64,000 nucleotides of DNA from an uncultured Eubacteriales bacterium (GCA_963632615.1 CAVGVF010000001.1:72636-136635), one strand, 5' to 3'. Shown: positions 2,754 through 38,725, counted from the first letter of the stretch. Numbers and translations are program-made. Notes: generated by a model from the letters alone, not told the origin.

Positions 2754-3698
2754 ATGAGCAGAAATTTATATGATGTTTTAGGTGTTGGCAAAACAGCTTC
2801 TGAAGCTGAAATCAAGTCGGCTTACCGTAAATTAGCGCGCAAATATCATCCGGATTTGAATAAAGATGATAAAACCGCGGCTGATAAATTTAAAGAAGTT
2901 TCAAATGCCTATGATATTATCGGCAATGCCGAAAAACGTAAAAAATACGACAATAATGAAATAGATGAAGAAGGAAAGCCTACCGGTTTCGGAGCCGGAT
3001 TCGGCGGAGCTCAAGGCGGTTTCAGAGGCTATCAAAGCTATGGCGGCAACCCGTTCAGCGGATTTTCAAGCCGAAGCTTTAACGGCGGAACACAGGGCGG
3101 TTTTGATTTTTCATCCATTTTCGGAGACGATATTTTTTCACAGTTCGGCGGTGCTCAAGGCGGTTTCAGACAGCGCACGGCGCCTCAGCGCGGGCAGGAT
3201 GTCGCTTATAATATGAGAGTTGACTTTTTGGACGCGGCCAAAGGTGTTGAAAAGCAAATAAGCTTAAACGGCAAAAACATAAACGTAAAAATTCCGGCCG
3301 GTATGCAAAGCGGCCAGACCATGCGCCTGAAAGGCCTTGGCAATGTCGGCTTGAACGGCGGCGAAAACGGCGATGTTTTAATAACCGTAAATGTCAATGA
3401 ACATCCGTATTTTAAAGCAGACGGCTTAAATATTTTATTAGATTTGCCGATTTCGGTAAAAGAGGCTATCAGCGGCGCTAAAATCACCGTTCCTACCATC
3501 AACGGCAAAGTTGCGGTAACTGTTCCGGCCTTTTCTTCCAGCGGCGAAAAACTGCGTCTGAAAGGCTTAGGCATAAAATCTAAAACCGGACAAGGCGATG
3601 AAATAGTCAATTTGCAAATTGTTTTACCAAAAGTAAAATCCGATAACTTAGCTGAAGCCGCCGAAAAAATGGAAAATTACGCAGTTAGGAGCTTTTAA
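2754..3698 (+). CDS. cbpA: DnaJ-class co-chaperone without zinc finger (CbpA-like)
   Basis: J domain with HPD motif (YDVLGV...[10 protein letters not shown]), a G/F-rich linker and a DnaJ C-terminal domain, but no CxxCxGxG repeats. Confidence 0.7.
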
Positions 3699-16132: not shown

Positions 16133-16921
16133 TTAAAAACTAACTTGTACAGCATATCTGTATTTACTTGGATCTTTTCCTTTATAAGCAGAACATAACT
16201 CATTCATATCATTGAAATTCATATTATTCATACATCTTACGCCTTTAGTGCAATAGCGATTTCCCCAAACGCTATACATTTTTATATCTCCGGCCAGCGG
16301 TTCACGCCATATTTTCCGGACATTATCCTTAAAATTCAAAGCAGCTTCCATAAAGGCCTGACAGACTTTAGGGCTAGCACTGTCAAAACCTAACCAATAA
16401 AAGAAGCCGAACGCCCTGCTTCCTTTATTACCGCTTGAATATAAAGTTACACCAAAGCCGTGTGAATCTTGAAAAGCATTTCCCCGCACATATTTAAATT
16501 CTCTCGGCAGCATATTTAGACTTTTCATAGTATATACATAATTTGTTTCCGTTCCCCAGCCGCCGATTTCTTGATTATTAAAATCATTTCTAATTTGTAT
16601 AAAATTATAAAAAACCTCAGTCCAGGCATCTCTTAATTTAATAAATTTATACCGTTCCATAGCTTTAGAGTAACCGGCAATACCACCCACGCTAAGAACC
16701 GCGATAATCGCCAGCACGCCCAGCATTTCTATCATTGAGCGGCCAACACAATTACCTGTCACACTTGGCTTTGAGCGAAGCGAATTCGCCGAGTGTCCAG
16801 GATGGTACATCCGATTAAAAAACTTGCAACAAATACTAAACACGCGTCCCAAGCACCAGTCATTGCCGGACATGACGGAGAACAAACGAAAGCTAAAACC
16901 ATTATTCAAATTATTATTCAT
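16133..16921 (-). CDS. prepilin-type N-terminal cleavage/methylation domain protein (type IV pilin/pseudopilin-like), paralogue 1
   Basis: Contains G-RSMIEMLGVLAIIAVLSVGGIAGY with Glu at +5 and a hydrophobic helix. The ATG at 16921 sits behind RBS GGAGG in exactly the same leader context as paralogue 2. The leader peptide is unusually long (49 aa); an internal Met at 16810 would give a 23-aa leader. Confidence 0.6.
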   Translation of the reverse strand: MNNNLNNGFSFRLFSVMSGNDWCLGRVFSICCKFFNRMYHPGHSANSLRSKPSVTGNCVGRSMIEMLGVLAIIAVLSVGGIAGYSKAMERYKFIKLRDAWTEVFYNFIQIRNDFNNQEIGGWGTETNYVYTMKSLNMLPREFKYVRGNAFQDSHGFGVTLYSSGNKGSRAFGFFYWLGFDSASPKVCQAFMEAALNFKDNVRKIWREPLAGDIKMYSVWGNRYCTKGVRCMNNMNFNDMNELCSAYKGKDPSKYRYAVQVSF

Positions 16922-16945: not shown

Positions 16946-17126
16946 AAAAAAACAAAACCCACCAAAATGGCGGGCGGATGTTCAGAAACCGTACTATACT
17001 AAAACGGCTCGGCTTATTCAGCTCATAGCCTTATTTAGCCGACATCCGCTCTAGGCAGAAATCGGCATAAAAAAATTTTAAGTCGTTTATGCATAACGAC
17101 TAGTATAGAAAGGGTTTCTGACGCCC
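16946..17126 (-). promoter_or_regulatory. conserved structured 5' leader element (copy 1) ending in a terminator-like hairpin plus U-tract
   Basis: About 85% identical to 30390-30575 in reverse-complement orientation. Compensatory changes lie in two helices. Putative promoter TTGCTT-N18-TATACT at 17148-17177 on the minus strand. Confidence 0.6.
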
Positions 17127-17371
17127 TGCATTTTGCAATGCAGTTTTAGTATAGCTTATCGCCGTTAAAATAAGCAAGGAAAATTTGAAATTATATTTAC
17201 TGTAAATATAGTGATAAATAAAATAGAGAAAAAATTAAATGAAATCAGTACAAAACTTTCAGAAACTCGGATAGCGTGTATAAATGCGACGGAATTTTTA
17301 AGCGACGTGTACACAATAGTACACGAGCGCAAAAATCCCTAGCAGATACCAGCTAGACGAGTTTCATACCA

Positions 17372-30157: not shown

Positions 30158-30242
30158 GCGCTTGTGGCGGAATCGGTAGACGCTGCAGACTTAAAATCTG
30201 TTGGGATTTATCCCGTGCCAGTTCAAGTCTGGCCTAGCGCAC
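30158..30242 (+). tRNA. tRNA-Leu (anticodon TAA)
   Basis: Cloverleaf with long variable arm, anticodon loop cuuAAaa, T-loop GTTCAAGTC, encoded CCA. Promoter TTGCAA-N17-TATATA at 30116-30144. Confidence 0.85.
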
Positions 30243-30250
30243 CAATAAAA

Positions 30251-30275
30251 AGGCTTTCCTTTAGGAGAGCTTTTT
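30251..30275 (+). terminator. intrinsic terminator after tRNA-Leu
   Basis: gctttcctttaggagagc followed by T7. Confidence 0.7.
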
Positions 30276-30306
30276 TTATGAATAACCGACAGCTAATACA
30301 CATTCG

Positions 30307-30331
30307 TCCGCTAATGAGGCGGATTTTTTTT
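30307..30331 (+). terminator. second tandem intrinsic terminator
   Basis: tccgctaatgaggcgga followed by T8. Confidence 0.6.
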
Positions 30332-30389
30332 CTTTACAAAACTAATTTGCTTAATTAAACTGAAAATTAGATATACGAGAGTTTATCTA

Positions 30390-30575
30390 GGGCGTCAGAA
30401 ACCCTTTTAGTTGCAGATAGTCGCTTTTGCATAAGCGACTTTAAACAGATTATGCCGATTTCTGTCATTGGACGGATGTCGGCTGAATAAGGCTATGCGC
30501 TGAATAAGCCGAGCCATTCTGCATCTGCAACTAATGGTTTCTGAACATCCGCCCGCTTTTTGCGGGTTTTGTTTT
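30390..30575 (+). promoter_or_regulatory. conserved structured 5' leader element (copy 2) ending in terminator-like hairpin plus U-tract
   Basis: Paralogous to 16946-17126. Helices: tcagaaacc/ggtttctga; tagttgcagat/atctgcaacta; agtcgcttttgcataagcgact; tcggct...agccga. Terminator-like gcccgcTTTTTgcgggtTTTGTTTT at 30551-30575. Promoter TTGCTT-N18-ATATAC at 30347-30376. Confidence 0.6.
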
Positions 30576-30602
30576 ATGTGCAATTTTTGGAGGTTTAGAA
30601 AT

Positions 30603-31250
30603 ATGTATAAGAATTTGGAAAAAGGACGTTCCATGATAGAAATGCTCGGCGTCATCGCTATTATTGCTGTTTTATCAGTCGGCGGGATTGCCGGGTATTC
30701 CAAGGCTATGGAAAAATTTAAGGTTAATAAAGCCGTATCAGAATACAGTTATTTAATCCAAGGGCTTATGGAACATCTGGAAAATATTCAAAAAATGTCA
30801 AATGTTCAGGAGGGCGATGTTCATCACGGGCTGGTAAATGTTGTGCAAGCAGCCGGTTTAGTGCCGGAAACTTGGGAAAATTCCGGCAATCCGGCAGATG
30901 ATAGAATGATTGATCCTTATGGCAATGTGATTCAAATATTTTCACGGAACAGCCGTTTGGTTATAGATATGTATCTTGGTGGCTTTAGCAACGTCGAAAA
31001 CGGCAGTGCTTCTCTTTCTTTTTCGCCAAAGTTTTGCAGCGTATTGATGCAGGATGTGGTTAAACCATTGTCTTCGGTTTTGCATCATGTTTGGTTTACA
31101 AATGGCAGCGGCTTATCTTATTTAGGAGATAAATTTTGCCGTTCAGGGCAAAAATGTGTTCGAAATTTGACCTTAATCGATATACAAAAAACTTGTAATT
31201 ATTGCACTAAAGAATCAGGTAAACTTTGCGGGCTAATTTTAGAATTTTAA
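30603..31250 (+). CDS. prepilin-type N-terminal cleavage/methylation domain protein, paralogue 2
   Basis: MYKNLEKG^RSMIEMLGVIAIIAVLSVGG: short leader, Glu+5, hydrophobic helix. RBS GGAGG 9 nt upstream. Cys-containing C-terminal domain. The track ORF start at 30534 is upstream of the RBS. Confidence 0.65.
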   Translation: MYKNLEKGRSMIEMLGVIAIIAVLSVGGIAGYSKAMEKFKVNKAVSEYSYLIQGLMEHLENIQKMSNVQEGDVHHGLVNVVQAAGLVPETWENSGNPADDRMIDPYGNVIQIFSRNSRLVIDMYLGGFSNVENGSASLSFSPKFCSVLMQDVVKPLSSVLHHVWFTNGSGLSYLGDKFCRSGQKCVRNLTLIDIQKTCNYCTKESGKLCGLILEF

Positions 31251-31843
31251 CCTGGATTATTATCAAATAAAATACCTATGTTACAATTTTGATTTTTACA
31301 GGTGTTACATTTTTGCAATGTTTTATTTAGAGTATAATCTTGGCAATTCATATCTTTTGCATATTGACTAGGAGCAGCTTTTCCACAAACTGTATAGCTT
31401 GTCCAATCTCCGACAGCCCAAATGCTGTTGTAATATTTAGGCAGTTCATATAGTTTTTTGCAGCAATTTACGGCATCTTTGCCTGCCGGCATTTGATATT
31501 TAAGTTCAAAGCGCAGGCCGTAATTTTTCCAGCCTATAGTAAACACTCTTAGGATATTTCCAAATAAATCTTTATGGTTAATATCAACGTAACTTGTTTG
31601 TATAATATCTGCACTGATTAAAAAATTGGTTATGTCTTCTTCCTTGGCGGTGTAGGATTTTTGATTAAGGTAAGCGGTTTGAATGTTGTTAATGGTTTGG
31701 ATAAGTCCTTCTTGCCATTTATTCAGTTTATACATTTCCATAGCTTTGGAGTAACCGGATATTCCGCCAACGCTCAATACAGCAATAATTGCCAGTACAC
31801 CAAGCATTTCTATCATTGAATGGCCTATTTGATTATTTTTCAT
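31247..31843 (-). CDS. prepilin-type N-terminal cleavage/methylation domain protein, paralogue 3
   Basis: MKNNQIG^HSMIEMLGVLAIIAVLSVGG with RBS AAGGAAG. An alternative start at 31876 is possible. Convergent with paralogue 2, overlapping it by 4 nt. Confidence 0.65.
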   Translation of the reverse strand: MKNNQIGHSMIEMLGVLAIIAVLSVGGISGYSKAMEMYKLNKWQEGLIQTINNIQTAYLNQKSYTAKEEDITNFLISADIIQTSYVDINHKDLFGNILRVFTIGWKNYGLRFELKYQMPAGKDAVNCCKKLYELPKYYNSIWAVGDWTSYTVCGKAAPSQYAKDMNCQDYTLNKTLQKCNTCKNQNCNIGILFDNNPG

Positions 31844-31932
31844 AACAACTTCCTTTTTCTCTTTGAAATTAAACAAAAAAGCCGTCTGAAAAAGACGACC
31901 GGAAGTTGAGAACTATTGTATATAAGTATAGT

Positions 31933-31964
31933 GTAGCATATTAGCGTATAGCATATTTTGCTAC
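31933..31964 (-). promoter_or_regulatory. conserved leader hairpin motif shared with the other two pilin leaders
   Basis: Stem gtagca/tgctac encloses loop aaatatGCTATACGCTaata. Compare tcggct/agccga enclosing gaataagGCTATGCGCTgaata at 30479-30512. Confidence 0.5.
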
Positions 31965-32089
31965 CTTCCGATCAATAGATCAGAAGGTATTTTACGTCTA
32001 ATATTTGACGTATATACAAGAGGTTCTCACACCTCGGACAGACTATCGCCTGTCTGCTGTAAAGTTATAAAAAAAGCGGTAAAATATCA

Positions 32090-32123
32090 AGTAAAAAATG
32101 TCACAAATTATAAACCGGTGACA
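32090..32123 (-). terminator. intrinsic terminator after fic
   Basis: Minus strand: tgtcaccggtttataatttgtgaca followed by TTTTTTAC. Confidence 0.65.
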
Positions 32124-32140: not shown

Positions 32141-32749
32141 CTACATCAAATTGTGAATATTGTATTCGTCATAGCCCTCATAATAGTAGCTGACATCAAT
32201 ACCTTTCATAAAAACTTCGCGCTCGTTGATTTTATCCGTGAGGGCGTTTTGCAGCAAATGTTTGATTTCTATATCTTTAATCGGACTTCTTTCCATGGCG
32301 GAAAGGTAATCCGCCTTATCAATTTTATTCCAATCCACGACTTTTTTCAGTTCTTTTTTAAATATTAAATCAAGCCAGATTCTAGTCGCCCGCCCGTTTC
32401 CCTCTCTAAACGGGTGGGCAACGTTCATTTCCACATATTTTTCCACGATTTCATCAAAAGTTGATTGCGGCATTTTATCTATTTGCTTTAGTGATTGCGC
32501 TAAATACATAACCGGAGCAAACCGAAAATTGCTTTTAGCAATGTTGACGGTGCGGAGCTTGCCGGCAAAATCGTAAATATCTTCAAACAAATACTTATGA
32601 ATTTGCTTAAGACCGCTAAAAGTGCCGACTTTTATTTTCTCAATTTTTCCGCTGTCAAAGAGTTTTTTAGCTTTGATTTTGCTTATTTTCTCTTCAGCTT
32701 TGTTCAGTTCTATTTGGTCCGTGATATTTAATTTATTTTCTAAAACCAT
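32141..32749 (-). CDS. fic: Fic family protein, class III (C-terminal inhibitory helix)
   Basis: Fic motif HPFREGNGRATR and C-terminal S-YYY-EG (SxxxEG) inhibitory motif; 202 aa, the NmFic-like size. Confidence 0.85.
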   Translation of the reverse strand: MVLENKLNITDQIELNKAEEKISKIKAKKLFDSGKIEKIKVGTFSGLKQIHKYLFEDIYDFAGKLRTVNIAKSNFRFAPVMYLAQSLKQIDKMPQSTFDEIVEKYVEMNVAHPFREGNGRATRIWLDLIFKKELKKVVDWNKIDKADYLSAMERSPIKDIEIKHLLQNALTDKINEREVFMKGIDVSYYYEGYDEYNIHNLM

Positions 32750-32768: not shown

Positions 32769-35700
32769 TTAGAACTTATAGCCTAAATTGAACAGATAAT
32801 AAACATTGCTCTTTTGTTCAAGCGGAGCGTTTACAGTCGCGCTGAGCGAAAGTTTTTTATAGTCGTACTGCGCCTTTACAGTCAATAAACCGCTGTCGCG
32901 CTGCAAACGGTTGCTGTTGATTTGATATGAGCCAAGCATATTGTCCATGGTCACCATCGTTGAATATTTGCTGCCGAATTCATGGAAATAACGCCCGCCG
33001 GCAGTCAGCAAAACAGACTGTTCTTTGCCGAGGTCAAAATCTTTCTTAATATCCATACCGATAACAGATTGAACTGATGTAACTTTGTCGCTGTCGGCTT
33101 TAAGTCCGCCGTTATTTTCTTTTAAGCCGTCAACTTTTACTTCAGTGATATTAGCGCCGGCAACCGGTTCAAGCTGCGCGATGTCAAGGTCTATAGTTTG
33201 GCGGGCTTCAGCGTCAATACCATAGTAGTAGTTGGTTAAATCAGCCTTATAGGCTTTATCCACGCCGCTGCGGCTGTAGTGACCCTTGCCGAAACCGATT
33301 TTAGGCTTAGCCATAGCGCGGAAATTATCATTGCTATAAGTCAGCGGAGCAAACACTTCCAGCACATTGTTATAACGAGATGAATCGTCATCAAAATCGC
33401 TGTCGCTGCGAGCCGCCGCCGCACCGAAACCTGCACGCCAGTTATTGGCAATTTGATAGTCGCTGAAACCGTAAACAGCTGTAACCTTGTCTTTATAGCC
33501 CGAAACATTGTGTTTGCCGTCAAACTCTTGCTGATAAGCCAAAACATTAACTTTAGCACGGCTTATTTCATTTGTTTGCGCCAAAATATCGTCATTGGCC
33601 GCGCGGTTGATATTGGCCAGCAAATCTAAGTCTTGTTTCGCCAAATTCGGAATCATGCTAAAGCCTAACTCGCGGTTTATAGCCGTATCAAAAGCCGAAG
33701 CAGTAGCCATACCTTTTAAGGTATTGAAAACGCCCTCGCCTTTTTGCGCTGCATAGTTTGTGCTTAAATATGCCGCCAGCTCTTTGTTGGCAACAGTTTC
33801 ATCAAACGATTTCATAGTCATAATTACGTCGGTGTTGCCGGATTCGTTAGCGGCTTTTTCAGCATTAAACATATAAGAGCCGGAAACCACATTTAGACCT
33901 GCATCTTTGCCGATAAATGAGTTATCGTTGCGGTAGGTCGTTTCAAATCCGCTTTGGGTAATATCCGCATCGGCTGTAACCGTGCCTTTTAAGGCCGGAG
34001 CTTTATAAGTTCCGTTTTTGCTGATGGCAATAACACCGGAATCTTTTGTTGAAGCATCAAAATCAAAAACATCATTATAGCTTACGGTGCCGTGATTTTT
34101 AAACACAGAGTTGTTTTGCACCATCATAAATCCGGAGCCTGACTGAGTTGACGTGCTTTCTTCACAGTCCATGCCGCTGCACAGTTCAGCACCGTTGACG
34201 GCATCTATAATGCCGTTATTGGTTGCGGTTCCGCCTTCATTTACGATAATGCCGTAAGATGTGCCGGATTGATTATTTTGGTTTATATAAATTCTTCCGT
34301 CGCTGTCGTTGGTAAAGGTTCCGCCTGCAACTCTTACGCCGGCTGAATTTGTACCGTAAACATGAATTTGGCCTTTATTGGTAACTTCGCCTTTTTCAAT
34401 ATAAATACCGGTGCCGCGGTCAACAAAATCTGTAATAATCACATTTCCGGAATCATCAAAACTGCCGGTGCCGATAGTAATCAGCCCGCTGTTTTCAAAA
34501 TTAGCTTCTTCGCCGGTAACTTTTACACCGTAGCCGTTATTGCCGATAACAGTTATATTGCCGGTGTTTTTGCTTTCTCCGCCGCTGACAGACATAGCCG
34601 TGCTGCCGGCTCCCGTCACTTTGATGTTTGAATTGTTGGTAGTTGTTCCGGCTGTTTCAATGCCGGTGCTGTAGTTTGTGCCGACTTCAATAGAGCCGTT
34701 GTTCTCAACAGTTCCTTCATCCGAAACAGAAACAGCCGTATTGCCGCTTCCGCTGTTGTTGCTGCCCAAAACCAGCTCAATGTTGCTGTTGTTGGTAAAA
34801 GTGCCTTTGCCGGCTATAACCGCTGTGCTGTTACTTGTGTTATTCAGGCGCAAAGTGCCGTTGTTGGTAATTTTTGTGCCTGTGCCGCCTGACGAGGCGT
34901 CAATGATGGTGCCTTTTTCAGTAATAGATATCTGCACATTGTCATTGACCGTTAAAGAAGCATTATCCATCAGTTTCGCTAAAGTTCCCTGTTCAAAGCT
35001 CATGCTTTTTTTCAAGGTTAAATCGCCGACTACCAGAAAATATGTCATGGTGGAAGCGGCTTCGGTGCTGCAATTTTCATCTGTAGTCGGATCGCAGATA
35101 TTAACGTTGCCGATATTGTCAATCACGGCTTTGCCGCTGATTTGGAATACGGTGGCGTTAGTGCCGAAAATTTTAATAATATTGTTTTTTATAACAGCGC
35201 CGTCCTGCAGTTCGCCGGTTCCGGCCGAATAAATGCCGATATTGTTATCTCCGTAAAGATTGATAACGCCGTTATTATATATATAGCTGTTTCCGGTGGC
35301 GTAAATGCCGAACGAATATTTGCCGTTTACGTTTATTACACCGGTTTTGTCGTTGATAACGTTGGCAATTCCGCTTGCATCGCTGGCCATGCCTACAGAA
35401 TAATCTGTTCCGACATCAATGCTGCCTTGATTCGTCATTTTTGCCGTGGAAATAACATCTTTATCCATATACATGCCGGCATTGTTGAAATTAGTGCCGT
35501 TTGAAGTCAAAATGATTTTACCGGTATTGGTTGCCGTACCTTGTTTTGAAGATACAGTCATTGCCGAGGTATGCGCCGATGACAGATTGATTGTACCGGA
35601 GTTGGTTATGGTTTCGGTTTCGGATGAGGCAACGGATGAGGTGGATGACGGAGATTTTGTGTTCATCACGCTTTGCTTTACGGTTAAAGTGAATTTGTCG

Positions 35701-37865
35701 GCCAAAGTGGCTGCTTCGCTGGACGAGCCGGAGCCTGACGAACCGGAAGAGCCGGATGATGAAGATTCATCATTCAGAGTGGCATCGTAAATGATGGTGC
35801 CGGCATTTACCAAGTTACTGTAATTTCCGCTGAAAACATCGGTGCCGATGGCGTTTTTATAAACATGGATGGTGCCGTTGTTTATCAGATTTGTTCCGCC
35901 GCTGTAGTCATTTCGGAGGGCTGTCGATTTATTTGAATAAATGTTAATCTGTCCGTTATTTACCAAAGATGTCAGAGTACTATCGCCGGAGCCGTACATG
36001 GCGATATTGTTGGTATAGCGGGTATTGTCGCTGGAACCCAGAGTAATTGTTCCGTTTTTATCATTCAGCAATGTTCCGCCGTTATATGAAGCCATTCCGA
36101 AGCCGTTGCTGGCATTTAACTGAATATTGCCTTTGTTGGTAACTGTTTGCTTGGTTGTGGTATATAGTCCGGATACCGAACCCGAACCTTCAACTGCAAG
36201 CATACCGTAGGTCATGCGCTGGTTATCGCCGTTAGTCTGAATGGTAATGTTTCCGGTGTTGGTAATGCTTCCGCTGTGAACAGACTGCATGCCGGCGGCA
36301 ACGGCAACAGAGTCTGATGAGCTTCCGGATTCGGAACTGTCATCTAAAGTAATATTGATTTTTCCGCTGTTGGTTGCCGTTGTATTGGCGTCTGCCCGCA
36401 TTCCGACAATTCCGCCCAAGCCTTTGCGCAAAGTTTTGGTTGTGTCAAAGGTGTATTGCCCCGTATATCCCAAATCTATGATACCGCTGTTGCTCAAAAC
36501 AGATTTATCGGCTCTTTGAATATTTTTAGAACCATTTAAAAATCCATCGTCCAAATAGCTTCCCATACCGATGATATTCACTTTGATTTCCGAGGCAGCG
36601 GCTCCGGCATCGCCGGCGCTGAGTTTTATGGTGCCGCTGTTTGAAGCTGTGTTGGTTTGATTGATGGCTTGCGAACCGGTATTCAGTATCATTGTTTCCA
36701 TACCGATAATGGTGCCGGATACGGATGTAACTTCCTTGGAACTGCTGTCGGAATTTTCATCTTGAGCAAAAATACCGTTCAGAATGCCGCCCGAAGAACT
36801 GCCGTTTTCAGAATCATCTTTGGTCGGGTCGCTGATTGCTTTAATGGCCGAACCGTTAATTTCTCCGGTATTTATAATCTGCGAGCCGTTATCGGCATAC
36901 ATACCGATAATCGTGTTGTTTTCGGTATATCCGGAAAAATTGAGGTTGATACCGTTGGCATCAGGGTCTTGGATAACCCCTTTTCCGTTATTGTAGGCAA
37001 TGGAATTATTGCTGGCAATCATCGCCACTGAATTATTAAACGCGTCAACATTTATATAGCCGTTGTTTGTAACCGTGCTTTTGCGGATTGCCGCCATTGC
37101 GGCCGAGCCTTCTCCGGCGGATATTTTAGTGTTCAGGCTGTTTGTGTATGAGCCGCCGTCAAGGGCTTCCAAGCCGACATCCATATATTTGCCGGCTTCC
37201 AGTACATTTTTATTGAAGTTAATTTTAGCGATTTCCGCTGTTTTGGTGTTTTTTATGTTTAATAAGCTGCTGTTTACGGCTGTTCCGCTGGTTGATTTTG
37301 CCACAGAGCCTTGCGAGCCTAAGGTTTCGCCGATATAGTTATTAGTTTCGGTTTCAGAGCTGCTGCTGCCGCCCCCGCCGCCTCCGCTCATTGCTAATGC
37401 GGCAATACCTCCGCCGACAGCCAAGCCGCCCAGCAGCCACCAGGTTGTAGAGGAGATTTTATATTTTTCTTTGCCCATTGTTCCATAAGCTTCACGAGGG
37501 GTTGCGGTTACGGAAACAGCTTTGGAATTGTTTACAAAATCTTCATAATATTCTATTTTTTGCACGCATGGATGGCGAGGGTTAGCTCCGGCGGCGCGGA
37601 AGGCATTGTAGGTGTAGGCATCTCTGTTTTGGGCGGCAACGCAAAGTCCGGTGTCGCCGTTTTGGTTGACACTGTCAATATTCATACCGCGGCGGACAGA
37701 AGCTCTCAAAGCTTCAACTTCGCCGTTTTGCGCCAGATTATACATTTTATTGAAAGACAGCGGCGACAAATTATAGGCTTTAGCCTCAGGCGCGGCTATA
37801 GTCAGGCTGAAAGACGCCAAAGACAGTAAACCAACGGTTTTTAGTATTATTTTGTTATTAAACAT
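32769..37865 (-). CDS. large autotransporter (type Va secretion) with beta-helical repeat passenger
   Basis: Sec signal MFNNKIILKTVGLLSLASFSLTIAAPEAKA; Gly/Ser linkers; dozens of degenerate N(N/S/T)G(T/N)I beta-helix repeats; C-terminal ~280-aa beta-barrel ending ...LFNLGYKF. Confidence 0.8.
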   Translation of the reverse strand: MFNNKIILKTVGLLSLASFSLTIAAPEAKAYNLSPLSFNKMYNLAQNGEVEALRASVRRGMNIDSVNQNGDTGLCVAAQNRDAYTYNAFRAAGANPRHPCVQKIEYYEDFVNNSKAVSVTATPREAYGTMGKEKYKISSTTWWLLGGLAVGGGIAALAMSGGGGGGSSSSETETNNYIGETLGSQGSVAKSTSGTAVNSSLLNIKNTKTAEIAKINFNKNVLEAGKYMDVGLEALDGGSYTNSLNTKISAGEGSAAMAAIRKSTVTNNGYINVDAFNNSVAMIASNNSIAYNNGKGVIQDPDANGINLNFSGYTENNTIIGMYADNGSQIINTGEINGSAIKAISDPTKDDSENGSSSGGILNGIFAQDENSDSSSKEVTSVSGTIIGMETMILNTGSQAINQTNTASNSGTIKLSAGDAGAAASEIKVNIIGMGSYLDDGFLNGSKNIQRADKSVLSNSGIIDLGYTGQYTFDTTKTLRKGLGGIVGMRADANTTATNSGKINITLDDSSESGSSSDSVAVAAGMQSVHSGSITNTGNITIQTNGDNQRMTYGMLAVEGSGSVSGLYTTTKQTVTNKGNIQLNASNGFGMASYNGGTLLNDKNGTITLGSSDNTRYTNNIAMYGSGDSTLTSLVNNGQINIYSNKSTALRNDYSGGTNLINNGTIHVYKNAIGTDVFSGNYSNLVNAGTIIYDATLNDESSSSGSSGSSGSGSSSEAATLADKFTLTVKQSVMNTKSPSSTSSVASSETETITNSGTINLSSAHTSAMTVSSKQGTATNTGKIILTSNGTNFNNAGMYMDKDVISTAKMTNQGSIDVGTDYSVGMASDASGIANVINDKTGVINVNGKYSFGIYATGNSYIYNNGVINLYGDNNIGIYSAGTGELQDGAVIKNNIIKIFGTNATVFQISGKAVIDNIGNVNICDPTTDENCSTEAASTMTYFLVVGDLTLKKSMSFEQGTLAKLMDNASLTVNDNVQISITEKGTIIDASSGGTGTKITNNGTLRLNNTSNSTAVIAGKGTFTNNSNIELVLGSNNSGSGNTAVSVSDEGTVENNGSIEVGTNYSTGIETAGTTTNNSNIKVTGAGSTAMSVSGGESKNTGNITVIGNNGYGVKVTGEEANFENSGLITIGTGSFDDSGNVIITDFVDRGTGIYIEKGEVTNKGQIHVYGTNSAGVRVAGGTFTNDSDGRIYINQNNQSGTSYGIIVNEGGTATNNGIIDAVNGAELCSGMDCEESTSTQSGSGFMMVQNNSVFKNHGTVSYNDVFDFDASTKDSGVIAISKNGTYKAPALKGTVTADADITQSGFETTYRNDNSFIGKDAGLNVVSGSYMFNAEKAANESGNTDVIMTMKSFDETVANKELAAYLSTNYAAQKGEGVFNTLKGMATASAFDTAINRELGFSMIPNLAKQDLDLLANINRAANDDILAQTNEISRAKVNVLAYQQEFDGKHNVSGYKDKVTAVYGFSDYQIANNWRAGFGAAAARSDSDFDDDSSRYNNVLEVFAPLTYSNDNFRAMAKPKIGFGKGHYSRSGVDKAYKADLTNYYYGIDAEARQTIDLDIAQLEPVAGANITEVKVDGLKENNGGLKADSDKVTSVQSVIGMDIKKDFDLGKEQSVLLTAGGRYFHEFGSKYSTMVTMDNMLGSYQINSNRLQRDSGLLTVKAQYDYKKLSLSATVNAPLEQKSNVYYLFNLGYKF

Positions 37866-38483: not shown

Positions 38484-38627
38484 CTATTTGCTGATGGAAA
38501 TTTCATCAATTTCTTCCATTTCCGAAGCAGAGTTACTGCAACCGCAGCCGCAACCGCCTTTAGATACGGTAGGCTGAGCTTTTTGAGACGGCTTTTTGTT
38601 ATCGTATGATTTTGATTCTTTTTTCAT
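38484..38627 (-). CDS. small Cys-rich peptide (47 aa) not in ORF track
   Basis: Strong RBS AAAGGAG 8 nt upstream. Translation MKKESKSYDNKKPSQKAQPTVSKGGCGCGCSNSASEMEEIDEISISK. Stop lies 9 nt before the hsp20 ATG. Confidence 0.4.
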   Translation of the reverse strand: MKKESKSYDNKKPSQKAQPTVSKGGCGCGCSNSASEMEEIDEISISK

Positions 38628-38725
38628 TTTTATCTCCTTTTTTGTTTTACACATATAACATTTTGATGTTACGCTGTAAGAGATAAATATGATTTGCCCA
38701 AATCAAAGCTATCCGTTAGGTTAGT

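What the first reader, a model, noticed from the sequence alone, without database searches (positions are those of the whole stretch)
31877..32100. Third pilin paralogue has a different leader that keeps the same hairpin motif and the pre-RBS terminator-like hairpin
Paralogue 3 (minus strand) has no recognisable similarity to the other two leaders over most of its 5' region. It does contain a hairpin at 31933-31964: stem gtagca/tgctac enclosing loop aaatatGCTATACGCTaata. This matches the core hairpin of the other leaders (stem tcggct/agccga, loop gaataagGCTATGCGCTgaata). The loop is conserved and the stem is fully covarying. Like the others it ends with a GC hairpin plus U-tract (cgtctttttcagacg GCTTTTTTGTTT) about 35 nt before its RBS. 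Several further hairpins are present (tacgtc..gacgta, accttc..gaaggt with a GATCaataGATC loop, gacag..ctgtc). A conserved protein- or ligand-binding loop shared by all three pilin leaders, set in two different scaffolds, suggests a modular regulatory RNA family.
Basis: seen in the sequence. Interest (0 to 1): 0.6.

Follow-up and report, generated by a model that had tools for sequence, protein, structure and literature searches.

The report
Switchable leader RNA before pilin genes
The hairpin is real, but it is one arm of a roughly 190-base folded leader RNA, apparently undescribed, that sits before all three pilin-like genes here and before surface-protein genes in related uncultured gut bacteria, and that can fold into either a "stop transcription" or a "read through" shape.

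Summary
The hairpin at 31933-31964 (- strand), the terminator and the other hairpins are present as described.

Leader 3 is not a different scaffold. A covariance model built only from relatives of leader 3 finds both other window leaders over its full length (61-62 bits, E about 1e-15). It finds 36 members in gut and rumen Alphaproteobacteria MAGs. The 34 members whose downstream ORF was examined each lie just upstream of a pilin-like ORF, apart from one with no ORF found.

Covariation supports eight nested helices: 94% of cells paired, and 46 of 50 pairs change on both sides.

The proposed loop core GCTATRCGCT occurs in only 4 of 36 members; it is a variable apical stem. The invariant part is an AAUA/AAUA internal loop.

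The 3' strand of the neighbouring hairpin P4 has two covarying partners: its own 5' strand, or a CUUCC segment that overlaps the terminator and matches the ribosome-binding site. I read this as a bistable attenuator that is off by default. What flips it is unknown.

Metagenome members also precede outer-membrane beta-barrel genes and occur in tandem. There was no Rfam match, and no description turned up in a limited literature search.

The parts
32062..32090 (-). Promoter-like region of leader 3: -35 TTGATA at 32090-32085 and a -10 region TATAACTT at 32069-32062. The inferred transcript start is near 32056.
   Evidence: Read. The position is conserved as TTGAC/TTTAC plus TAnAAT-like boxes in the type-B alignment. 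The strict sigma-70 scan did not call it. Inference only.
32036..32055 (-). P0, the 5'-terminal hairpin (AGACAG / CUGUCC, loop GCGAUAGU).
   Evidence: Helix 1 of the family structure: 91.6% paired, 6 of 6 pairs change on both sides. The same loop, GCAAUAGU, occurs in some type-A leaders.
32020..32035 (-). S1 mini-hairpin GAGG..CCUC. Its loop carries L (UGAGAAC, 32029-32023), the 5' strand of the long-range helix L:L'.
   Evidence: L:L' is paired 7 of 7 in all 22 type-B members, with many different sequences. It is 98.8% paired in 36 members. S1 is compatible in nearly all members but shows little covariation.
32012..32019 (-). P2a, the 5' strand of the hypervariable long-range helix P2 (UUGUAUAU). 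It pairs with P2b at 31923-31916.
   Evidence: All 8 pairs change on both sides; 95% paired.
31994..32011 (-). P3 hairpin (ACGUC..GACGU), followed by the conserved UAAAU linker.
   Evidence: Helix 4. In relatives with a longer linker the P3 loop pairs with that linker (self -3.3 against cross -1.7 kcal/mol, none of 10,000 permutations as low). This is not seen in leader 3.
31963..31988 (-). P4 hairpin (core CUUCUGAUC / GAUCGGAAG, 31986-31965). Its 3' strand (31973-31965) is the switching strand and resembles a Shine-Dalgarno sequence.
   Evidence: P4 is 94-98% paired, and 6 of 9 pairs change on both sides. UUC and GGA.G are at least 90% conserved family-wide.
31933..31964 (-). P5, the hairpin of the finding. 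Outer stem GUAGCA/UGCUAC, internal loop AAAUAU / UAAUA, and a short variable apical stem-loop.
   Evidence: 98.6% paired, 6 of 6 pairs covary. AAU(A) on the 5' side and AAUA on the 3' side are present in 34-36 of 36 members. GCTATRCGCT is present in 4 of 36.
31907..31932 (-). ACUAU (P6a, 31932-28), P2b (31923-16), AUAGU (P6b, 31916-12) and L' (GUUCUCA, 31913-07).
   Evidence: P2 and L:L' are. The alternative local hairpin P6 (ACUAU/AUAGU; GCCGU/ACGGU in type A) has its three inner pairs (helix 6) changing on both sides, 91.6% paired; its two outer pairs (helix 5) show no double-sided change, 88.9% paired.
31897..31906 (-). Anti-Shine-Dalgarno-like segment A-CUUCCGGUC. It is the 3' strand of the antiterminator helix (with 31973-31965). 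It overlaps the terminator by 3 nt and is complementary to the Shine-Dalgarno sequence.
   Evidence: The helix is paired 9 of 9 in nearly all type-B members, with compensatory changes (GAUCGGAAG/CUUCCGGUC, AGCAGGAAG/CUUCCUGCU, GGUCGGAAG/CUUCCGACC). The centroid fold pairs ACUUCC with GGAAGU.
31872..31899 (-). Intrinsic terminator (GUCGUCU uuuuc AGACGGC) plus its U tract.
   Evidence: Terminator scan hit at 31900-31880. Helix 8 is 92% paired, 6 of 6 pairs covary.
31841..31853 (-). Shine-Dalgarno sequence GGAAGUU (31853-31847) and the ATG (31843-31841) of pilin-like paralogue 3.
   Evidence: The ribosome-binding region AAAGGAAGUU is nearly invariant in type B. The duplex with the anti-SD segment is type-specific.
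31247..31843 (-). Pilin-like gene 3 (198 aa, G|HSMIE prepilin-type N-terminus).
   Evidence: Weak N_methyl PF07963 match: 20.5 bits, just under the 21.2-bit cut-off, E=3.5e-4. Weak prepilin-peptidase-dependent matches in NCBIfam. Alignment.
30368..30575 (+). Type-A member of the same leader family, upstream of pilin-like gene 2 (30606-31250).
   Evidence: R1 (trained on type B only): 61.4 bits, E=8e-15, model positions 1-182.
16948..17143 (-). Type-A member of the same leader family, upstream of pilin-like gene 1 (16133-16921).
   Evidence: R1: 62 bits, E=5e-15, model positions 1-182.

Best explanation
Region 32056-31872 (- strand) is a member of a conserved, cis-acting, bistable leader RNA of about 190 nt. 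It controls the pilin-like gene behind it by transcription attenuation, backed up by sequestration of the ribosome-binding site.

OFF fold. A long closing helix (L:L' plus P2) holds a four-way junction with P3, P4 and P5. The intrinsic terminator forms. In any read-through transcript the CUUCC segment just before the terminator pairs with the Shine-Dalgarno sequence GGAAG.

ON fold. The 3' strand of P4 (GAUCGGAAG, a Shine-Dalgarno look-alike) leaves its 5' partner and pairs with that same CUUCCGGUC segment. This removes 3 nt from the terminator stem and frees the real Shine-Dalgarno sequence.

Shown: the helices, their covariation, the mutual exclusivity, the terminator and the gene association. 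Inferred: that the OFF fold is the default, that the switch is regulated, and that the invariant AAUA/AAUA internal loop of P5 is where the unknown effector acts. P5 abuts the switching strand with no linker.
For: Family and homology:
- The type-B covariance model finds 36 members in 512 kb, including all type-A leaders over the full model length.
- Profile HMMs cross-hit between the two types.
- Of the 34 nhmmer instances examined, 33 are followed by an ORF within about 35 nt, in the same orientation; most carry the prepilin motif, a few have long N-terminal extensions or short ORFs, and L046 gave no ORF.
- In the 64-kb window the model hits exactly the three pilin leaders.

Structure:
- Nested structure: 94.4% of cells paired against 33-42% when partners are slid. 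46 of 50 pairs change on both sides. 0 of 500 shuffles reach this (the MAFFT-only alignment gives 90.4%).
- Alternative helices: the antiterminator helix is 99% paired in type B, with 4 of its 9 pairs covarying there (5 of 9 across all 36 members). The slid controls give 28-59%.

Expression platform:
- Terminator called at 31900-31880.
- The leader folds far better than shuffles (z = -7.2). The centroid shows P0, L:L', P2, P3, P4, the terminator and anti-SD:SD pairing.
- The terminator fold is more stable than the antiterminator fold in 32 of 36 members. For leader 3 the values are -65.7 against -55.5 kcal/mol, with MFE -67.2.
- The anti-SD:ribosome-binding-site duplex is type-specific.

Candidate sensor:
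- The nucleotides conserved family-wide are UUC, GGA.G, AAC.UCC and the two AAUA of P5.
Against: - There is no expression data. The transcript start, termination and read-through are all inferred.
- The strict sigma-70 scan found no promoter.
- The antiterminator overlaps the terminator by only 3 nt, and 2-3 nt in type A.
- In type A the antiterminator helix carries a conserved A-C mismatch (8 of 9 pairs).
- Energy comparisons ignore pseudoknots and co-transcriptional kinetics. For type A they are weakened by alignment-derived constraints.
- The gene association in the genome set is biased, because the loci were fetched by similarity to the pilin.
- No effector is identified.
Confidence: 0.75

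Rival explanations
1. The effector is a small molecule, making this a new riboswitch class. A metabolite or signalling nucleotide binds the junction and/or the AAUA/AAUA loop of P5 and shifts the balance between P4 and the antiterminator. This would switch on surface-protein genes. It is a specific version of the best explanation, not an alternative to the attenuator.
For: - A large multi-helix fold with covariation, invariant unpaired nucleotides and a pseudoknot in part of the family.
- A terminator/antiterminator expression platform.
- More than one gene class is controlled: pilin-like and OMP_b-brl genes.
- Tandem copies exist.
- By analogy, from my own knowledge: c-di-GMP riboswitches control pilin and adhesin genes.
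Against: - No match to any Rfam riboswitch, even at E up to 10.
- The family has a narrow taxonomic range.
- The controlled genes are structural surface proteins, not enzymes or transporters that would point to a ligand.
- Few conserved unpaired nucleotides remain outside the switch strands.
- The tandem copies each have their own promoter, unlike classical tandem riboswitches.
Confidence: 0.3
2. The effector is an RNA-binding protein. One option is an antiterminator or repressor that recognises the quasi-symmetric AAUA/AAUA loop of P5. Another is a CsrA-like protein that recognises the conserved GGA of the P4 3' strand and of the Shine-Dalgarno sequence. Orphan tandem copies would then act as decoys.
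For: - The invariant AAUA on both strands of P5 has two-fold pseudo-symmetry, as expected for a dimer site.
- The type-A switching strand ACGGAUGU resembles the CsrA SELEX consensus RUACARGGAUGU. This is recalled from memory and is a lead, not a test.
- Both the P4 3' strand and the Shine-Dalgarno sequence carry GGA.
- Another pilin 5' region type in the same MAGs shows UUAGGAG in two hairpin loops plus the Shine-Dalgarno sequence.
- Orphan promoter-leader-terminator units occur in tandem.
- The family is restricted to one clade and to surface-protein genes.
Against: - In both predicted folds the GGA is base-paired, not presented in a loop.
- No candidate protein gene is linked to the leaders in the window.
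- The presence of CsrA or another regulator in these MAGs was not tested.
Confidence: 0.3
3. The element is mainly a stand-alone small RNA gene (promoter, about 190-nt RNA, terminator) that acts in trans. It merely tends to lie next to surface-protein genes.
For: - It has its own promoter-like boxes and a strong terminator. The predicted default is termination.
- Orphan units are followed by another promoter and unit rather than by a gene in L098, L132 and L146. L153 has no ORF within 150 nt.
Against: - The 33 genome-set members with a called downstream ORF end no more than about 35 nt before its start codon, in the same orientation.
- The segment before the terminator is complementary to the downstream Shine-Dalgarno sequence in a type-specific way.
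- A covarying antiterminator helix has no purpose in a pure small RNA.
Confidence: 0.1
4. The shared hairpin is a chance resemblance between unrelated AT-rich leaders.
For: - A 9-of-10 match between two 250-nt regions is expected about once or twice by chance (my estimate).
- One of the three window matches to GCTATRCGCT is inside a coding sequence.
Against: - Full-length homology at E about 1e-15.
- The hairpin stem covaries at 6 of 6 pairs across 36 members.
Confidence: 0.01

Closest known systems
Terminator/antiterminator attenuators with 1:2 / 2:3 / 3:4 logic (trp-type attenuators and riboswitch expression platforms)
   Same: Four segments are present: P4 5' strand, P4 3' strand, CUUCC segment and terminator 3' arm. 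The middle pairings are mutually exclusive. An intrinsic terminator lies upstream of the ORF. An anti-SD segment adds a translational layer.
   Different: There is no conserved leader peptide. About 60 nt of conserved structure (P5, P6/P2b, L') sits between segments 2 and 3. A long-range helix ties the 5' end to the region just before the terminator.
c-di-GMP-II riboswitch upstream of the type IV pilin gene pilA1 in Clostridioides difficile (from my own knowledge; not tested here beyond Rfam)
   Same: It is a structured 5' leader with a terminator that gates a pilin gene, with an OFF default and ligand-induced read-through. Its regulon consists of surface structures.
   Different: No sequence or structure similarity. 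Neither c-di-GMP family appears even at E up to 10. The host clade is different. The ligand here is unknown.
CsrA-controlled leaders, for example the flagellin (hag) leader of Bacillus subtilis with FliW-CsrA (from my own knowledge)
   Same: It provides post-transcriptional control of a filament subunit through GGA motifs, one of them in the Shine-Dalgarno sequence. Decoy RNAs with repeated sites exist in Csr systems.
   Different: Here the GGA motifs are in stems, a terminator is involved, and the RNA is far larger and more structured. CsrA has not been shown to be present in these MAGs.
sRNA-Xcc1 (RF02221), the best weak Rfam hit on the type-A leader
   Same: It has a three-way-junction-like layout with a closing helix. 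The hit scored 24 bits, E 0.059.
   Different: The score is far below the gathering score of 53. The family is an integron-associated gamma/beta-proteobacterial small RNA. It does not hit leader 3.

Membership tests
Transcription attenuator / riboswitch-type leader (kind, not a named family) | Intrinsic terminator between the promoter and the start codon | tested here: met
   Terminator-like site at 31900-31880 (-) with a U tract. The helix is conserved and covaries in 36 members.
Transcription attenuator / riboswitch-type leader (kind, not a named family) | Alternative (antiterminator) pairing that excludes the terminator and is supported by covariation | tested here: met
   31973-31965 pairs with 31905-31897: 99% paired in type B, 4-5 pairs change on both sides, 3-nt overlap with the terminator.
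Transcription attenuator / riboswitch-type leader (kind, not a named family) | Conserved structured sensor domain upstream of the expression platform | tested here: met
   Eight helices, 46 of 50 pairs covary, 0 of 500 shuffles reach this. Folding z-score -7.2.
Riboswitch (strict sense) | Direct, specific binding of a small ligand that changes the fold | not testable with these tools
   Needs in-line probing, SHAPE or ITC with candidate ligands.
Any Rfam 15 family (4227 models, including c-di-GMP-I/II, T-box, ykkC, ZTP and r-protein leaders) | Score at or above the family's gathering threshold | tested here: not met
   The window scan gives only 3 tRNAs. The best sub-threshold hits are L10_leader at 21 of 44 bits on leader 3 and sRNA-Xcc1 at 24 of 53 bits on leader 2.
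Leader-peptide (trp-type) attenuator | Conserved short ORF with a start codon at a fixed position overlapping segment 1 | tested here: not met
   No ATG column is shared by more than 16 of 36 members. ORF lengths are inconsistent, from 2 to more than 26 codons.
CsrA/RsmA-binding leader | Two or more GGA motifs presented in hairpin loops, one overlapping the Shine-Dalgarno sequence, and a CsrA homologue in the genome | tested here: inconclusive
   GGA is conserved in the P4 3' strand and in the Shine-Dalgarno sequence, but it lies in stems in both folds. The presence of CsrA was not tested.
The pilin-leader family defined here (model R1) | Full-length match to R1 with P0-L-P2-P3-P4-P5-terminator, directly upstream of a surface-protein gene | tested here: met
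   Leader 3 scores 178.5 bits (it was a training sequence). The independent type-A leaders score 61-62 bits over model positions 1-182.

The most novel reading that the evidence does not exclude
The leader is the aptamer and expression platform of a previously unknown riboswitch class, or of an equally new RNA-protein sensor. It is confined to uncultured gut and rumen Alphaproteobacteria. It turns on a variable repertoire of surface proteins (dozens of pilin-like paralogues and small outer-membrane barrels) in response to one signal sensed at the AAUA/AAUA loop of P5. Orphan tandem units would tune or buffer the response.
Probability: 0.3. Interest if true: 0.85.

Novelty: new member of a known kind. 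Interest (0 to 1): 0.62.

Why it matters
The organisms are uncultured gut and rumen Alphaproteobacteria known only as MAGs. They carry very large families of pilin-like genes: 545 or more confirmed hits in the genome collection. Nothing is known about how these genes are expressed.

A 190-nt leader with two covariation-supported folds gives a concrete regulatory mechanism that can be tested. It also gives a covariance model that marks the controlled genes in metagenomes.

If a ligand or protein effector is found, it would name the signal that governs surface remodelling in this clade. It would also add an orphan class to the riboswitch and attenuator catalogue.

The same leader heads different pilin bodies in closely related strains. 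This suggests the leader plus the conserved N-terminus acts as a fixed expression site for exchangeable surface-protein cassettes.

Tried and rejected
- Rfam at gathering and at permissive E-values: nothing.
- Leader peptide. An apparent 12-codon ORF in leader 2 (ATGCCGATT...TAA) is broken by indels in relatives, and no ATG column is conserved. Rejected.
- Pairing of the P0 loop (AUAGU) with ACUAU. It is not supported by L006 (where ACUGC has no matching change in P0) or by type-A leaders. Rejected on inspection.
- Tetraloop-receptor reading of P5 (UAUG/CUAA resembles the 11-nt receptor). The key positions vary and no conserved GNRA partner exists. Kept only as a lead.
The accepted gapped pattern was too degenerate: only 8 of 80 listed loci are true members by the covariance model.
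- A literature search for a described pilin-leader RNA found none. The human-microbiome structured-RNA catalogue lists motifs next to N_methyl genes, but in other taxa, and it cannot be matched by sequence here.
- No pilus-assembly or regulator genes lie next to the leaders in the window.
- Energy comparison for type A is unreliable. Alignment-derived constraints give energies far above the MFE.

Full report
**What is at the coordinates.** Read on the - strand, 32100-31844 is the 5' region of the third of three pilin-like genes in the window. Those genes are 16133-16921 (-), 30606-31250 (+) and 31247-31843 (-). All three share the prepilin-type N-terminus G[RH]SMIEMLGV..AIIAVLSVGG. GTAGCA/TGCTAC is at 31964-31933 and encloses AAATATGCTATACGCTAATA. 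The hairpins GACAG/CTGTC, TACGTC/GACGTA and ACCTTC/GAAGGT are there too. A terminator-like hairpin at 31900-31880 is followed by TTTTTTGTTTA. The matching hairpin of the other leaders is at 30479-30512 (+) and, with two mismatches, at 17009-17042 (-).

The ten-base core GCTATRCGCT has three matches in the window against 0.32 expected. One of them lies in an Hsp20 coding sequence, and leader 1 does not match the pattern. The motif alone is therefore weak evidence.

**The leaders are one family, not two scaffolds.** A scan of one genome per species with the three pilins returned 80 loci, out of 545 or more confirmed hits. Nearly all come from uncultured gut and rumen Alphaproteobacteria MAGs.

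- BLASTN and profile HMMs show that both leader types are conserved over about 215 nt upstream of many paralogues. The profiles also cross-hit. The type-A HMM finds 32052-31869 (-) at E=4e-5 across HMM positions 4-208. The type-B HMM finds 30356-30583 at E=1.4e-8.
- I built a covariance model (R1: 182 positions, 50 base pairs) from 22 type-B leaders only. It recovers all 12 type-A leaders from model position 1 to 182. These include 16948-17143 (-) at 62 bits and 30368-30575 (+) at 61 bits, E about 1e-15.
- In the 64-kb window it finds exactly the three pilin leaders.
- Downstream ORFs were examined for the 34 instances found by nhmmer. 33 are followed within about 35 nt by an ORF in the same orientation; one (L046) gave no ORF. 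Most carry the prepilin motif near the start. A few have long N-terminal extensions or a short ORF. Two further covariance-model hits (L063 minus strand, L050) were not checked.

**Architecture and covariation.** From 5' to 3' the leader contains:

- promoter-like boxes;
- P0, a 5'-terminal hairpin;
- S1, a small GRGG/CCYC hairpin whose loop carries L;
- P2a;
- P3;
- P4;
- ACUAU, then P2b, then AUAGU;
- L';
- AAC-CUUCC;
- the terminator, the Shine-Dalgarno sequence and the ATG.

On the MAFFT alignment of type B, the nested structure is 90.4% paired against 35-40% when partners are slid. On the covariance-model alignment of all 36 members it is 94.4% paired. 46 of 50 pairs change on both sides, and 0 of 500 shuffles reach this. 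L:L' is 7 of 7 paired in every type-B member, with more than ten different sequences. P2 is hypervariable yet always complementary. In relatives with a longer P3-P4 linker, the P3 loop pairs with that linker; this is not seen in leader 3. Leader 3 folds with z = -7.2 relative to shuffles.

P5 is the best-behaved helix. It is 98.6% paired and all six pairs change on both sides. At least twelve stem variants occur, including GUAGCA/UGCUAC, UCGGCU/AGCCGA, GCAGUU/GACUGC and GUUGCG/CGCAGC.

The 'conserved loop' is not what is conserved. GCTATRCGCT occurs in 4 of 36 members and GCTATNNGCT in 9 of 36. In most members those bases form a variable inner stem, GCUAU..AUAGC. What is invariant is AAU(A) on the 5' side and AAUA on the 3' side of an internal loop, present in 34-36 of 36 members.

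Family-wide, the nucleotides conserved at 90% or more are mainly:

- the GG of S1;
- UUC (P4 5' strand);
- GGA.G (P4 3' strand);
- the two AAUA of P5;
- AAC.UCC before the terminator.

Among the conserved blocks, only the AAUA pair and a few isolated junction nucleotides are not explained by the switch described next.

**A two-state switch.** The P4 3' strand (31973-31965, GAUCGGAAG) has two partners.

- Its own 5' strand (31986-31978) forms P4. This helix is 94-98% paired and contains G-U wobbles.
- CUUCCGGUC (31905-31897) forms a 9-bp, almost entirely Watson-Crick helix. It is 99% paired in type B and shows compensatory changes such as AGCAGGAAG/CUUCCUGCU and GGUCGGAAG/CUUCCGACC. The slid controls give 28-59%.

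The second partner overlaps the terminator's 5' arm by 3 nt, so this helix is an antiterminator. The same CUUCC segment is complementary to the Shine-Dalgarno region AAAGGAAGUU. The centroid fold pairs the two. The complementarity is type-specific: B against B gives -8.5 kcal/mol and B against A gives -6.5; A against A gives -6.1 and A against B gives -5.1.

The logic is 1:2 plus 3:4 for OFF (termination, with the Shine-Dalgarno sequence masked in any read-through) and 2:3 for ON (read-through, with the Shine-Dalgarno sequence free). Two small local hairpins, S1 and P6, are compatible with the ON fold, and P6 covaries.

Nearest-neighbour energies favour the OFF fold in 32 of 36 members. They also favour it in 30 of 36 when the transcript is cut before the terminator's 3' arm. 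For leader 3 the values are -65.7 against -55.5 kcal/mol, with MFE -67.2. I therefore infer an OFF default that needs an activating input. These calculations ignore pseudoknots and kinetics. No conserved leader peptide exists.

**Beyond pilins.** A degenerate P5 pattern scan of metagenomes followed by R1 found further members.

- Three precede pilin-like genes.
- Two (L098, L121) precede small outer-membrane beta-barrel proteins: PF13505, E=3e-20 and 9e-13.
- Several are tandem units, each with its own promoter-like boxes and terminator. L098 has up to five units; L132 and L146 have two each.

The regulon therefore looks like surface proteins in general, and orphan units exist. That keeps a decoy or trans-acting role in play.

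**Comparison with known systems.** Nothing in Rfam 15 matches, even permissively. I found no paper describing it, though that search covers only open-access text.

It works like a classical terminator/antiterminator attenuator with an added anti-SD layer. Functionally it recalls c-di-GMP riboswitches that gate pilin genes, but it shares no sequence or fold with them.

I cannot decide whether the input is a small ligand, a protein or something else. A protein is suggested by the quasi-symmetric AAUA/AAUA loop, by the conserved GGA motifs, and by a second pilin 5' region type with UUAGGAG hairpin loops. I give about 0.3 to each of the first two options.

**Verdict.** The feature is a new, well-supported structured leader family of a known kind (attenuator or riboswitch candidate) and is worth experimental follow-up.

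Noticed in passing
window 31247-31250: Pilin-like genes 2 (+) and 3 (-) are convergent. Their stop codons share the four bases TTAA, and there is no terminator between them.
   Followed up: no
window 32141-32749 (-) compared with L023 2698-2708: The Fic-domain gene (PF02661, E=1.7e-13) between the autotransporter and leader 3 is absent from the syntenic locus of a closely related MAG (flanks 88-93% identical). It is a strain-specific insertion or deletion.
   Followed up: partly
window 31247-31843 compared with L023 3001-3630: In the related MAG, the same leader and N-terminal 35 codons (93% nt identity) head a different pilin body, one resembling window gene 2. This suggests cassette exchange behind a fixed leader and N-terminus.
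   Followed up: partly
window 16740-16921 (-); L002, L008, L017, L019, L022, L027, L035 upstream of the prepilin motif: Many paralogues, including window gene 1 (60 extra residues), carry long N-terminal extensions. Those in the listed loci are built from GC-rich palindromic repeats such as CTAGGCACAGGGCCTAGGATGAC, lying between the start codon and the G|RSMIE motif.
   Followed up: no
L070, L075, L078 about 2800-3000; L007 about 100-313: A different pilin 5' region type. Two hairpins present UUAGGAG in their loops, followed by a UAGGAG Shine-Dalgarno sequence. The pattern resembles CsrA-type binding sites.
   Followed up: no
L026, L041, L044, L061 about 2750-2990: Another pilin upstream type in a different MAG. 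A perfect palindrome of about 34 nt, ATGTCCGAAAAAAGGGATCCCTTTTTTCGGACA, is present twice before the gene.
   Followed up: no
L098 1-1167; L132 636-1071; L146 10-414: Tandem arrays of two to five leader units lie upstream of one gene, each with its own promoter-like boxes and terminator. Some units are degenerate.
   Followed up: partly
window 38484-38654 (-): A 56-aa ORF lies just upstream of the Hsp20 gene. It has a Lys-rich N-terminus, a GGCGCGCS motif and an acidic tail. It could be a small Cys-rich peptide, or it could be spurious.
   Followed up: no
window 30158-30340 (+): A tRNA gene is followed by two successive terminator-like hairpins immediately upstream of the promoter region of leader 2.
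   Followed up: no
window 32769-37865 (-): A 1698-aa autotransporter (PF03797 beta-domain) with a long Ser/Gly/Thr/Asn-rich passenger lies next to the pilin locus. It has no leader of this family.
   Followed up: partly
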